Assembly: GCF_006345805.1 (NCBI RefSeq)
Contig: NC_043000.1
Span: 41,230,001-41,294,000 of the forward strand
Source: Octopus sinensis
Taxonomy: Eukaryota
DNA: 64,000 bases
Direction: 5' to 3'
Position numbers: made by a program. Position 1 is the stretch's first letter; each line of letters starts with the position of its first letter. This document shows, piece by piece, positions 4,759 to 7,268 of the stretch.

Positions 4759-4794
<36 letters not shown>

Positions 4795-7268
4795 CAATAA
4801 TAATTCTCTAAACGAGATATAAACAGTAACTGCTCCATAACATAAGGGACATCAGCCATCTGAATGTGGCTAGGGACAGGGCAGGGCGGTGGGGGTGTTA
4901 CTGATGCATTTAGCCCCAGGCGATCATCAACGTCACCAGGAGGGCTGACACCATCACGGTGTCCTCTAGCCTGCAAAGGGAGATCATTCCCCGAAGAAGC
5001 GGATGCCACATACGGACCTAGGTTTCAAGGTGTTTGCCTATTATCAACGCATGGCAGGCACCGCTCCTCGACGAATAACTCTCTGTGTAGGCTATATTTA
5101 AAGATTTTCACAGTAAATACATTTACTAATGTAGAAAATCCGTTCGAAAGCAATAATAATTCTCTAAACGAGATATAAACAGTAACTGCTCCATAACATA
5201 AGGGACATCAGCCAGAGCGGTGCCTGCCATGCGTTGATAATAGGCAAACACCTTGAAACCTAGGTCCGTATGTGGCATCCGCTTCTTCGGGGAATGATCT
5301 CCCTTTGCAGGCTAGAGGACACCGTGATGGTGTCAGCCCTCCTGGTGACGTTGATGATCGCCTGGGGCTAAATGCATCAGTAACACCCCCACCGCCCTGC
5401 CCTGTCCCTAGCCACATTCAGATGGCTGATGTCCCTTATGTTATGGAGCAGTTACTGTTTATATCTCGTTTAGAGAATTATTATTGCTTTCGAACGGATT
5501 TTCTACATCAGTAAATGTATTTACTGTGAAAATCTTTAAATATAGCCTACACAGAGAGTTATTCGTCGAGGAGCGGTGCCTGCCATGCGTTGATAATAGG
5601 CAAACACCTTGAAACCTAGGTCCGTATGTGGCATCCGCTTCTTCGGGGAATGATCTCCCTTTGCAGGCTAGAGGACACCGTGATGGTGTCAGCCCTCCTG
5701 GTGACGTTGATGATCGCCTGGGGCTAAATGCATCAGTAACACCCCCATCGCCCTGCCCTGTCCCTAGCCACATTCAGATGGCTGATGTCCCTTATGTTAT
5801 ATATATATATATGAATTATATCTATTCTGGAGGCGGCTGGTCGTAGTAGTCATCGCCTCTATACAAGCAGTCATGACGAAAATTGTTGTGGTAATGGTGC
5901 TCGCTGCCATTGTAGATGTGGTGGTGATGGTAGCAGCGGCTGTGATTATTGTGTTTGTTAGTGTATTGGTAATATACGACCGGGATGCTGAGCTTTGTGA
6001 TGATAATGATCACAACAGTGGTTATTTTGCTAGTACTGATCGTGTTGATGGTGAATGTTACAGGGGTGGTTGCAGAAGTGATAGTTGTGATAACGATAAT
6101 GCTACAGATAATACTGAAATAGTGATTGTGTTGGTAATTGTAATGGTCATTTTTGGTCGTAGTGGTTGCATTGCTGGCTTTAGTTGCTAGGATCGTATTG
6201 ACCTTAATAATGAGGTGAGACGGGTGGTGATGGTGGTGCTTGTAGTGGCGATAGCTGTAGTGATAGTAGTGAAAGTTGTTGAGGTATTTACTGAAGTAAT
6301 GGTGTTTATCTATTTCTTTATTACCCACAAGGAGCTAAACATAGAGGGGACAAACAAGGACAGACAAACGGACTAAGTCGATTATATCGACCCCGGTGCG
6401 TAACTGGTACTTAATTTATCTAACCCGAAAGGATGAAAGGCAAAGTCGACCTCGGCGGAATTTGAACTCAGAACATAACGGCAGACGAAATACGGCTACG
6501 CATTTCGCCCGGCGTGCTAACGTTTCTGCCATCTCGCCGCCTTTTAATACATATTTCTTTACTACCCACAAGGGGCTAAACATAGAGGAGACAAACAAGG
6601 ACAGACAAAAGGATTAAGTCGATCACATCGATCCCAGTGCGTAACTGGTACTTAATTTATCTACCCCGAAAGAATGAAAGGTAAAGTCGACCTCGGCGAA
6701 ATTTGAACTCAGAACATAACGGCAGACGAAAAACGGCTACGCATTTCGCCCGGCGTGCTAACGGTCCTGCCAGCTCGCCGCCTTGCAACTGAAGTAATGG
6801 TGTTTATCGTAAAAATGGCAATGCTATCACTTATTTTTCATCTCAGCTAACACCATCCTTGAAAAATTACACAAACATCACTACTCCATCGCTTTGCGTC
6901 AAAAAACACCATATCTGCAATCAGCCCCCGCCGCGTTCAACACCGTCGACCCCAATAGCTACTTGTGGTTCTGTTTGTGGTGTTTTGGAGTGGTGTGTTG
7001 GCCGTGGCTGAGGTGTTGGAGAGACATTGGTGATTGTTGCAGAAATGGTGGCAGTAACAGTGAGAGGATGGGGGCAGTGAGTGATGTGCTGTTGGAGTTG
7101 GGGAGGATCACTTTGTTGCGGTCACTATTGTAATATAGCTGCTTGTGAAGGTAAGAGAAGTTTTGAGATTCTTCTTCTTCTTCTTCTTCTCTTCTTCTTC
7201 TTCTTCTTCTTCTTCTTCTTCTTCTTCTTCTTCTTCTTCTAAATATTATTATTATTATTATTATTATT

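What the first reader, a model, noticed from the sequence alone, without database searches (positions are those of the whole stretch)
4793..5800. 356-bp ribozyme-punctuated repeat: candidate retrozyme / circular-RNA system
Seen: a GC-rich, hairpin-rich 356-bp unit in near-identical copies (I noticed only two differences), each with a complete type I hammerhead fold. The two tandem plus-strand ribozymes predict cuts after 5266 and 5622, releasing an exact 356-nt monomer (5267-5622). Established: metazoan non-LTR retrozymes and Penelope pLTRs are tandem units of a few hundred nt with minimal type I HHRs, and monomers can circularise. Inference: this is a young non-autonomous retroelement family that probably borrows a Penelope-like RT. 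I do not recognise this family, but cannot confirm it is undescribed.
Basis: partly seen in the sequence, partly recalled or inferred. Interest (0 to 1): 0.88.

Follow-up and report, generated by a model that had tools for sequence, protein, structure and literature searches.

The report
Octopus-type retrozyme with variant hammerhead
A 356-base non-coding mobile element carrying a variant self-cleaving hammerhead RNA motif sits in a TA microsatellite, arranged the way Penelope-like retroelements insert, so it is a new example of a known kind of circular-RNA retroelement, not a new kind.

Summary
The repeat is real. Positions 4793-5800 are 1008 bp built from one 356-bp unit: 422 bp inverted (4793-5214) followed by 586 bp direct (5215-5800). 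There are two differences in all, and (TA)n flanks both sides.

Each unit carries a type I hammerhead-like motif, with predicted cuts after 5266 and 5622 on the plus strand and at 5015/5014 on the minus strand. The motif is not the consensus. Its core is UUGAUAA (U3-A8 in place of C3-G8), helix II is weak and lacks G10.1-C11.1, and Rfam finds nothing. U3-A8 is a documented natural covariation (PMC4209133, PMC3088659).

The motif is unlikely to be chance: 0 of 20000 shuffles passed my descriptor. The unconstrained minimum-energy fold of the tandem transcript is a double hammerhead joined by the ACCUAGGU palindromes.

A partial tandem with an adjacent inverted 5'-truncated copy, outer ends offset by 44 nt, and a (TA)n target match the published Penelope-like insertion architecture (PMC8557442). 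The best reading is a non-autonomous, Penelope-mobilised retrozyme in an octopus-like genome. Cleavage, circles and copy number are untested. It is a new member of a known kind.

The parts
4762..4792 (.). (TA)n microsatellite, left flank of the insertion
   Evidence: TRF row 4762-4793, period 2, 100% matches; sequence read; flank printed
4793..5214 (-). Inverted copy of the unit, 422 bp (1.18 units). In sense it runs from unit position 157 through 356/1 to 222, so its 5'-truncated end lies at the inner junction 5214/5215
   Evidence: blastn of the unit against the window: 5014-4793 at 100% and 5214-5015 at 99.5%; inverted repeats I1 and I2; one difference at 5128
4793..4836 (-). 44 nt (unit positions 179-222) by which the left outer end reaches further into the unit than the right outer end; candidate Penelope-type 'tail'
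   Evidence: The outer ends map to unit positions 222 (left) and 178 (right). A 30-40 bp tail at one end of PLE insertions is described in PMC8557442. Calling this the tail is inference
4996..5066 (-). Hammerhead-like motif of the inverted copy; predicted cut between 5015 and 5014
   Evidence: Descriptor hit on the minus strand, core position 3 at 5047
5215..5800 (+). Direct partial tandem, 586 bp (1.65 units): unit positions 305-356, 1-356, 1-178
   Evidence: Direct repeat D1 with spacing 356; blastn rows; one difference at 5748
5215..5285 (+). Hammerhead-like motif 1. Helix I pairs 5215-5233 with 5267-5285. Core U3-A9 is 5234-5240. Helix II pairs 5242-5244 with 5251-5253, loop CAAACA. G12-A14 is 5255-5257. 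The helix III palindrome ACCUAGGU is 5258-5265. C17 is 5266, with the cut after 5266
   Evidence: Sequence read; descriptor hit; constrained and dimer folds
5267..5622 (+). Predicted 356-nt monomer released by the two plus-strand cuts. As a circle it is predicted to be highly paired, with the two ends held together by an extended helix I
   Evidence: Circular minimum free energy -109.2 kcal/mol, 65% of bases paired, z = -3.6 against 150 dinucleotide shuffles; unit positions 1-48 pair with about 272-325
5571..5641 (+). Hammerhead-like motif 2; core position 3 at 5590, palindrome 5614-5621, cut after 5622
   Evidence: Descriptor hit. In the unconstrained fold of 5215-5660, positions 5614-5621 pair with 5258-5265
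5801..5812 (.). (AT)n, right flank of the insertion
   Evidence: Sequence read; flank printed. Repeat family D2 includes the overlapping 23-nt copy 5798-5820

Best explanation
This is one recent insertion of a 356-nt, non-coding, non-autonomous retroelement of the metazoan non-LTR retrozyme type. It was put into a (TA)n microsatellite by the machinery of a Penelope-like element (PLE).

Shown from sequence.
- The element is a partial tandem with an adjacent inverted 5'-truncated copy.
- Every unit has a type I hammerhead-like motif. Its core has the U3-A8 covariation, its cleavage triplet is GUC, and helix III is a 2-bp stem inside an 8-nt palindrome.

Inferred mechanism.
1. A multimeric transcript folds so that the palindromes of two neighbouring motifs pair. 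This gives a double hammerhead that cuts after each GUC and releases a 356-nt RNA with a 5'-OH and a 2',3'-cyclic phosphate.
2. The two ends are held side by side by an extended helix I and are joined by a host RNA ligase into a circle.
3. In the monomer or circle the active fold is disfavoured, which protects it from re-cutting.
4. A PLE reverse transcriptase/GIY-YIG endonuclease nicks a (TA)n target. It copies the circle, or an uncleaved multimer, for more than one unit from both target ends. That gives the diverging inverted-plus-tandem arrangement with the 3' ends outward.
For: Repeat anatomy: a 356-bp period; 422 bp inverted plus 586 bp direct; 2 differences in 1008 bp; (TA)n on both sides.

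Seamless unit junctions: the sequence runs without a break across unit position 356/1 at all 3 places (5015/5014, 5266/5267, 5622/5623). The template was therefore a circle or an uncleaved multimer.

Motif against chance: 3 of 3 hits in the window lie in the locus; 0 of 20000 unit shuffles pass. With the loose descriptor, 2 of 1500 shuffles pass with a palindromic helix III.

Folds.
- Two 70-nt motif segments cofold into the double hammerhead with an 8-bp intermolecular helix III (-55.8 against 2 x -25.7 kcal/mol). In a single segment the hammerhead fold is 5.5 kcal/mol worse than the minimum-energy fold.
- The unconstrained minimum-energy fold of 5215-5660 is the double hammerhead, and is identical to the constrained fold at -149.5 kcal/mol.
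- The circular monomer has z = -3.6.

Non-coding: the longest stop-to-stop frame around the circle is 85 aa (+) and 104 aa (-), and the 104-aa frame has no Pfam match.

Literature read.
- U3-A8 occurs naturally in about 1300 Schistosoma PLE-related motifs. Metazoan type I hammerheads typically have a 6-bp helix I, a 4-bp helix II, and a 1-2 bp helix III with a small palindromic loop, and they act as dimers (PMC4209133, parts 1-2 of the text).
- Hammerheads with covarying bases at positions 3 and 8 had been shown active in vitro, and U3-A8 is seen in nature (PMC3088659 passage).
- PLE insertions are partial tandems, often with an inverted 5'-truncated copy at the 5' end and a 30-40 bp tail. Naiad PLEs target (TA)n and occur in Octopus spp. 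(PMC8557442 passages).
- Mussel retrozymes are 350-390 bp and are expressed as circles, with PLEs proposed as the mobilisers (PMC7229834).
- Retrozymes are related to PLE pLTRs in Xenopus (preprint 10.64898/2026.07.22.740005, Results).

Context in the window.
- Two diverged fragments of another element carry PLE-type minimal hammerheads and also end in (TA)n.
- The closest relatives of a pogo-like ORF are Octopus proteins at 77% and 75% identity.
- Octopus vulgaris is reported to hold PLE families listed among its putatively active elements (PMC13282606 passage).
Against: - No Rfam hammerhead model matches, even at E<=10. The same search also missed the canonical-core minimal hammerhead at about 3100, so this negative is weak.
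- Two of the nine core positions usually written as invariant (C3 U4 G5 A6 G8 A9 G12 A13 A14) deviate.
- Helix II has only 3 Watson-Crick pairs and lacks the G10.1-C11.1 pair, which PMC4209133 calls highly conserved.
- PLE minimal hammerheads showed low activity in vitro (PMC4209133).
- Only one locus exists in 64 kb, so neither a family nor conservation or covariation of the fold across copies could be shown.
- PLEs without hammerheads (Naiads) make the same tandem/inverted insertions, so the architecture does not need a ribozyme or a circle.
- No PLE RT was seen in the window, but only 10 of 280 stop-to-stop frames of >=70 aa were scanned against Pfam.
- The 44-nt offset is somewhat longer than the published 30-40 bp tail.
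- My descriptors were written after seeing the motif.
Confidence: 0.65

Rival explanations
1. It is the same Penelope-mobilised non-autonomous element, but the hammerhead-like motif is catalytically dead or irrelevant. The tandem and inverted copies come purely from the Penelope-like integration mechanism acting on a linear RNA, and no circular RNA is made.
For: Naiad and most Chlamys PLEs lack canonical hammerheads yet make partial tandems, inverted copies and multicopy head-to-tail non-autonomous insertions (PMC8557442 passages). Helix II is weak and lacks G10.1-C11.1, and the core deviates at two positions. No Rfam hit. PLE minimal hammerheads had low activity in vitro.
Against: The two core deviations are exactly the documented isosteric U3-A8 covariation, reported as active in vitro. 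The remaining 7 of those 9 core positions, plus A15.1-U16.1, the GUC triplet, the 6-bp helix I and the palindromic helix III, are all in place. A motif this complete is rare by chance. The double hammerhead is the unconstrained minimum-energy fold.
Confidence: 0.2
2. It is not a mobile element. It is a local duplication-inversion of unique sequence, or a palindromic assembly artefact, that happens to contain a hammerhead-like string.
For: There is only one locus in the window. Craig et al. note that such structures cause assembly problems. Near-identity of the copies is also what an artefact would give.
Against: The block ends exactly at (TA)n on both sides. The two arms are asymmetric, with different breakpoints, and each is longer than one unit, which a simple fold-back artefact would not give. 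The motif is improbable by chance: 0 of 20000 shuffles. Two other hammerhead-bearing fragments in the window also abut (TA)n.
Confidence: 0.07
3. It is a short array of a hammerhead-bearing satellite DNA, amplified at the DNA level by unequal exchange or replication slippage, not by retrotransposition.
For: Hammerhead satellites in newts and cave crickets were historically described this way (mentioned in PMC7229834; PMC2837043 seen only in a search listing).
Against: There are only 1.65 direct units plus an inverted arm. The boundaries in a microsatellite are sharp. The orientation has 5'-truncated ends meeting in the middle and 3' ends outward, which fits target-primed reverse transcription from both sides. 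Such satellites have since been reinterpreted as retrozymes.
Confidence: 0.05

Closest known systems
Metazoan non-LTR retrozymes (Cervera & de la Pena 2020, PMC7229834), e.g. the 350-390 bp repeats of the mussel Mytilus galloprovincialis
   Same: A short non-coding unit (356 bp) repeated head to tail, with one type I hammerhead per unit. GC is below 50% (46.9%). The monomer is predicted to be highly self-paired, with helix I closing the molecule. The host is also a mollusc, to judge by the Octopus protein hits.
   Different: There are only 1.65 direct units, plus an inverted arm not described in the parts of that paper I read. The core is U3-A8 in place of C3-G8, and helix II is weak. Expression, circles and copy number are unknown here.
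Hammerheads of Penelope-like elements, including the U3-A8 variant of Schistosoma Cercyon-related motifs (Cervera & de la Pena 2014, PMC4209133)
   Same: The U3-A8 covariation in the core, palindromic 15.2-16.2 and loop 3, and predicted action as a dimer. There may also be one nucleotide between A9 and helix II, if the U after A9 is read as unpaired.
   Different: PLE minimal motifs have a long helix II (6-8 bp) with G10.1-C11.1, a short helix I (4-5 bp) and usually no helix III. This motif has a 3-bp helix II, a 6-bp helix I that extends to about 45 bp, and a 2-bp helix III. Its architecture is nearer the 'canonical metazoan type I'. No RT/endonuclease ORF is attached.
Penelope-like insertion architecture and non-autonomous PLE derivatives (Craig et al. 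2021, PMC8557442), e.g. Naiads that target (TA)n and MRC1 of Chlamydomonas
   Same: A partial tandem, an inverted 5'-truncated copy at the 5' side, an offset ('tail') at one outer end, insertion in (TA)n with no discernible target-site duplication, and a non-autonomous unit that makes more-than-unit insertions.
   Different: Naiads lack canonical hammerheads, whereas this element has a hammerhead-like motif. Sequence similarity to the 3' end of an autonomous partner could not be tested. The offset is 44 nt, against the published 30-40.
Double hammerheads of newt satellite 2 and axolotl retrozymes
   Same: An unstable helix III with a palindromic loop, so that two motifs in a multimer pair to form the active structure. 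The monomer is predicted not to favour the active fold.
   Different: There is no sequence relation. Those are very high-copy families with a consensus core, and their activity has been measured; here it has not.

Membership tests
Hammerhead ribozyme, type I | Three helices around a junction, with helix I open (type I topology) | tested here: met
   Helix I is 6 bp and extendable. Helix II is AGG/CCU. Helix III is 2 bp, or an 8-bp intermolecular palindrome..
Hammerhead ribozyme, type I | Consensus core C3 U4 G5 A6 N7 G8 A9 ... G12 A13 A14, with A15.1-U16.1 and H17 | tested here: not met
   The core reads U3 U4 G5 A6 U7 A8 A9 ... G12 A13 A14, then A15.1-U16.1 and C17. Two positions, 3 and 8, deviate.
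Hammerhead ribozyme, type I | Positions 3 and 8 able to form a Watson-Crick pair | tested here: met
   U3-A8, a covariation documented in nature and reported active in vitro (PMC4209133; PMC3088659).
Hammerhead ribozyme, type I | G10.1-C11.1 pair closing helix II | tested here: not met
   It is U-U. If the U after A9 is read as the extra unpaired nucleotide, it is A-U followed by G-U.
Hammerhead ribozyme, type I | Match to the Rfam hammerhead covariance models | tested here: not met
   No hit at gathering score or at E<=10 in 4600-6000. As a control, the same mode also missed the canonical-core minimal hammerhead near 3100.
Hammerhead ribozyme, type I | Site-specific self-cleavage | not testable with these tools
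   Needs in vitro transcription of 5215-5660.
Hammerhead ribozyme, type I | Conservation or covariation of the helices across copies | not testable with these tools
   The 3 copies are identical in the motif. There is no other copy in the window and no eukaryotic genome collection on hand.
Metazoan non-LTR retrozyme | Tandem repeats of 150-450 bp, each with a type I hammerhead | tested here: met
   A 356-bp period. There are 2 motifs in the direct arm and 1 in the inverted arm. Only 1.65 direct units.
Metazoan non-LTR retrozyme | Non-coding, without LTR, PBS or PPT; GC below 50% | tested here: met
   The longest frames are 85 and 104 aa, with no Pfam match. GC is 46.9%. PBS and PPT were not searched for specifically.
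Metazoan non-LTR retrozyme | Monomer predicted as a stable, highly self-paired RNA | tested here: met
   Circular minimum free energy -109.2 kcal/mol, 65% paired, z = -3.6; minus polarity z = -2.7.
Metazoan non-LTR retrozyme | Expressed as linear and circular RNA of unit length | not testable with these tools
   No transcriptome data.
Metazoan non-LTR retrozyme | Multiple dispersed genomic copies | not testable with these tools
   One locus in 64 kb; the genome is not available.
Penelope-like element insertion (non-autonomous derivative) | Partial tandem (pseudo-LTR) with an inverted 5'-truncated copy at the 5' side | tested here: met
   In the sense of the hammerhead strand the two arms diverge. 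The variable inner ends lie at unit positions 157 and 305, and the outer ends at 222 and 178. Described in PMC8557442.
Penelope-like element insertion (non-autonomous derivative) | 30-40 bp tail at one end | tested here: inconclusive
   The outer ends differ by 44 nt. Without other copies the true terminus is unknown.
Penelope-like element insertion (non-autonomous derivative) | Insertion bias for microsatellites | tested here: met
   (TA)n on both sides. (TA)n is reported as the Naiad target.
Penelope-like element insertion (non-autonomous derivative) | Similarity of the 3' end to an autonomous PLE of the same genome | not testable with these tools
   No PLE consensus library or host genome on hand. 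There is no similarity to the two PLE-like fragments in the window.

The most novel reading that the evidence does not exclude
This is an active cephalopod retrozyme whose U3-A8 double hammerhead releases a 356-nt circular RNA. Its insertion footprint (more than one unit copied from both ends of a (TA)n target, with an inverted 5'-truncated arm and a tail) is a direct single-locus record of rolling-circle, target-primed reverse transcription of a retrozyme circle by a (TA)n-targeting Penelope-like element. So far that link has been argued only from co-occurrence and sequence similarity.
Probability: 0.35. Interest if true: 0.55.

Novelty: new member of a known kind. Interest (0 to 1): 0.42.

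Why it matters
Non-LTR retrozymes are an abundant but little-studied source of small circular RNAs in animals, and who mobilises them is still argued from indirect evidence. This locus combines a retrozyme-type unit with the full insertion signature of Penelope-like elements, so it gives a concrete, testable example of that link.

I found no paper in the library that joins hammerheads or retrozymes with cephalopods.

The locus is also a natural example of a hammerhead that combines a U3-A8 core with a weak helix II. That is useful for asking how far the motif can drift and still work as a dimer. It is not a new kind of system.

Tried and rejected
- Rfam over the whole window at gathering score and at E<=10 over 4600-6000. 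No hammerhead, twister, pistol, hatchet, HDV-like or hairpin match; only chance-level snoRNA and sRNA rows. So there is no support for another known ribozyme class on either strand.
- Rfam at E<=10 over 2950-3350, as a control. It also missed the canonical-core minimal hammerhead there.
- Other copies of the unit in the window: none beyond the locus (blastn, word size 7, E<=10).
- TRF did not list the 356-bp period. The repeat finder did.
- Coding potential of the unit: none.
- Pfam on 10 of the 280 stop-to-stop frames of >=70 aa, chosen by highest residue entropy. There was one DDE_1 fragment and no reverse transcriptase. This is not a full scan for a PLE ORF.
- Microhomology at the inner junction 5214/5215: none.
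- Sequence similarity between the unit and the two PLE-like fragments: none of note.
- Literature search for 'hammerhead, G8A, C3U': 0 papers.
- I recalled Przybilski & Hammann 2007 as the in vitro test of position 3-8 exchanges. I saw it only as a reference entry and did not read it.

Not checked.
- Copy number and conservation in the host genome, and Dfam, Repbase or PLE consensus libraries. No eukaryotic collection is on hand.
- Supplements of PMC7229834 and PMC4209133 are closed. They may list species and motif alignments, possibly including cephalopods.
- Complex prediction, structure tools and the protein atlas were not relevant and were not used.
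Full report
WHAT IS THERE

Positions 4793-5800 (1008 bp) are built entirely from one 356-bp unit.
- The left 422 bp (4793-5214) are in minus orientation and cover 1.18 units.
- The right 586 bp (5215-5800) are in plus orientation and cover 1.65 units.
- The two arms meet head to head at 5214/5215 with no microhomology.
- Against the reference unit 5267-5622 the whole block has two differences, at 5128 and 5748. 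Both are C-to-T in the sense of the unit.
- The block is bounded by (TA)16 on the left (4762-4792) and (AT)6 on the right (5801-5812).
- The unit has 46.9% GC against 36.7% for the window.
- It has no other copy in the 64 kb.
- It has no coding potential. The longest stop-to-stop frames around the circle are 85 and 104 aa, and the 104-aa frame has no Pfam match.
- The window has no N.

THE HAMMERHEAD-LIKE MOTIF

On the plus strand of the first direct copy the motif reads as follows.
- Helix I pairs 5228-5233 (CAUGCG) with 5267-5272 (CGUAUG). With bulges it extends to 5215-5233 paired with 5267-5285.
- The core is 5234-5240, UUGAUAA.
- A U follows at 5241.
- Helix II is AGG (5242-5244) paired with CCU (5251-5253), with loop CAAACA. 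A U follows at 5254.
- G12 A13 A14 lie at 5255-5257.
- Helix III is A-C/G-U around a CUAG loop. Positions 5258-5265 form the perfect palindrome ACCUAGGU.
- C17 is at 5266, so the cut would fall after the GUC triplet.

The same motif recurs at 5571-5641 (cut after 5622) and on the minus strand at 4996-5066 (cut between 5015 and 5014).

The motif is not 'complete' in the consensus sense. C3 is U and G8 is A, and helix II has only three Watson-Crick pairs closed by U-U in place of G10.1-C11.1. Rfam gives no hammerhead or other ribozyme hit at gathering score or at E<=10. That negative is weak. The same sensitive mode also misses a canonical-core minimal hammerhead elsewhere in the window (see 'Context in the window').

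IS IT CHANCE?

I used two descriptors, both written after I had seen the motif.

The first accepts either a C3-G8 or a U3-A8 core, helix I >=5 bp, helix II >=3 bp, GAAA, a palindromic helix III insert of 0-10 nt, and U-H.
- It finds only the three locus copies in both strands of the window.
- It finds nothing in 20000 dinucleotide shuffles of the unit.
- It finds nothing in 60 shuffles of the window without the locus.

The second is far looser: any <=2 substitutions among the nine core bases.
- It hits 17 of 1500 shuffled units with any helix III insert.
- It hits 2 of 1500 with a palindromic insert.
- It hits 0 of 1500 with a palindrome >=4 nt and helix I >=6 bp.

Even allowing for the post hoc design, the motif is unlikely to be chance. 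The two deviating bases are also precisely the pair that forms a Watson-Crick pair in the active ribozyme.

The literature supports that reading.
- Cervera & de la Pena 2014 report U3-A8 in place of C3-G8 in about 1300 Schistosoma motifs related to the Cercyon PLE (PMC4209133; I read parts 1-2 of 4).
- Perreault et al. 2011 state that C3 and G8 covary to U3 and A8 in several natural hammerheads, and that ribozymes with covarying bases there had been shown active in vitro (PMC3088659, passage).
- The overall dimensions match what PMC4209133 calls the canonical metazoan type I architecture: helix I 6 bp, helix II 4 positions, helix III 2 bp with a 4-nt palindromic loop.

FOLDS

- A single 70-nt motif segment prefers an alternative hairpin (-25.7 kcal/mol) over the hammerhead fold (-20.2).
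- Two such segments cofold, unconstrained, into the double hammerhead. It has an 8-bp intermolecular helix III, both helix II hairpins and both cores open (-55.8 against -51.4 for two monomers).
- The unconstrained minimum-energy fold of the natural tandem transcript 5215-5660 is this same double hammerhead. Positions 5258-5265 pair with 5614-5621. The structure is identical to the one obtained when the double hammerhead is imposed (-149.5 kcal/mol).
- The 356-nt monomer folded as a circle has -109.2 kcal/mol, 65% of bases paired, and z = -3.6 against 150 shuffles. The minus polarity has z = -2.7.
- In that fold, unit positions 1-48 pair with about 272-325. Helix I thus continues into a long stem that would hold the two cleavage ends side by side.

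These are predictions, not measurements. They fit the published idea that such motifs cut in multimers and are quiet in the monomer.

INSERTION ARCHITECTURE

In the sense of the hammerhead strand the two arms diverge.
- Their inner ends lie at unrelated unit positions, 157 and 305.
- Their outer ends lie close together, at 222 and 178, which is 44 nt apart.
- Both outer ends abut the TA repeat.

Craig et al. 2021 (PMC8557442, passages) describe Penelope-like insertions in these terms:
- they are highly 5'-truncated;
- they are organised in partial tandems;
- they often have an inverted 5'-truncated copy immediately at the 5' end;
- they have a 30-40 bp tail at one end;
- they show strong microsatellite bias, (TA)n for Naiads;
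- Naiad families occur in cephalopods, including Octopus spp.;
- non-autonomous derivatives make multicopy head-to-tail insertions.

The locus meets each of these points, except that the offset is 44 nt and cannot be verified as a tail from one copy.

Each arm is longer than one unit, and the sequence runs seamlessly across unit position 356/1 in all three places. The template must therefore have been a circle or an uncleaved multimer.

CONTEXT IN THE WINDOW

The loose descriptor's single hit outside the locus led to two diverged copies of another element on the minus strand, at about 3010-3200 and about 58880-59070. The full-stretch alignments (2990-3400 against 58860-59260, and 3030-3170 against 58900-59040) have mean column identities of 73% and 81%, with the shared part spanning about 190 nt.
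- Each ends directly at a (TA)n repeat.
- Each carries a PLE-type minimal hammerhead roughly 100-130 nt from that end (read from the alignment). It has an extra A after A9, a G10.1-C11.1 pair, a GAGC/GCUC helix II and essentially no helix III.
- One copy has the canonical core CUGACGA. The other has CUGUUGA (A6U).
- Helix I shows a compensatory C-G to G-C change between the two copies.

So hammerhead-bearing, (TA)n-targeting retroelements have inserted here at least three times.

The host looks like an octopus or a close relative. A pogo/Tigger-like ORF at 45154-45639 (-) has its best matches in Octopus bimaculoides (77% identity) and O. vulgaris (75%). I did not take this further. A 2026 repeat annotation of O. 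vulgaris lists 31 Penelope-like families in its table of putatively active elements (PMC13282606, passage).

COMPARISON WITH WHAT IS KNOWN

- Cervera & de la Pena 2020 (PMC7229834; abstract, Results part 1, section 14 and Discussion) define metazoan non-LTR retrozymes. They are tandem repeats of about 170-400 nt with type I hammerheads, low GC and highly paired circular RNAs. The mussel examples are 350-390 bp. They propose PLEs as the mobilisers.
- A 2026 preprint (10.64898/2026.07.22.740005; abstract and Results part 1) shows that retrozymes co-occur with PLEs and are related to PLE pLTRs in Xenopus.

The present element fits that kind. It differs in its U3-A8 core with a weak helix II. It also displays the full PLE insertion signature, inverted arm included, in a single young copy.

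In the library I found no paper that joins 'retrozyme' or 'hammerhead ribozyme' with octopus or cephalopod terms in a relevant way.
- In one search, 2 of the 25 listed papers held all three terms. Neither describes such an element.
- In one search, none of the 20 listed papers held 'hammerhead ribozyme'.

VERDICT

- The interpretation as a candidate retrozyme mobilised by a Penelope-like element is supported and strengthened.
- Self-cleavage, circularisation, copy number and the identity of the mobiliser remain inferences.
- It is a new member of a known kind and of moderate interest.

Noticed in passing
window about 3010-3200 (-) and about 58880-59070 (-): Two diverged copies of another element (mean column identity 73-81% in the two alignments made, shared part about 190 nt). 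Each ends at a (TA)n repeat and carries a Penelope-type minimal type I hammerhead: an extra A after A9, a GAGC/GCUC helix II with G10.1-C11.1, and almost no helix III. Copy A has the canonical core CUGACGA and copy B has CUGUUGA (A6U). Helix I shows a compensatory C-G/G-C change. They are probably 5'-truncated 3' ends of a hammerhead-bearing Penelope-like element. Rfam at E<=10 does not detect copy A.
   Followed up: partly
window 4793-5800: The two arms form a near-perfect inverted repeat (378-nt arms, 99% complementary). Any read-through transcript would therefore fold into long double-stranded RNA, a possible substrate for RNA interference or A-to-I editing.
   Followed up: no
window 6311-6784, 7306-7838 and about 20 other places: A SINE-like repeat of about 240 bp is very abundant. 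A blastn of one copy gives 27 matching stretches in the window, the probe itself included, at 73-93% identity. Some lie in tandem right next to the locus.
   Followed up: partly
window 44946-46074 (-): Remnant of a pogo/Tigger-type DNA transposon split over several frames. One frame matches Pfam DDE_1 (E = 2.6e-07). The best protein relatives are from Octopus bimaculoides (77%) and O. vulgaris (75%).
   Followed up: partly
window 13032-13103: An interstitial telomere-like array, about 12 imperfect copies of CCCTAA (TRF row; read).
   Followed up: no
window 28653-29246: A tandem repeat of a 99-bp unit, 6 copies, 98% matches. A 176-aa repetitive open frame runs through it.
   Followed up: no
window 41456-41890: An AT-rich 200-bp unit repeated 2.2 times at 95% matches, bounded by TA microsatellites.
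   Followed up: no
whole window: An extreme density of microsatellites. TRF lists 167 rows plus 17 not shown in 64 kb, mostly TA, TG/CA, and tri- and tetranucleotide arrays.
   Followed up: no
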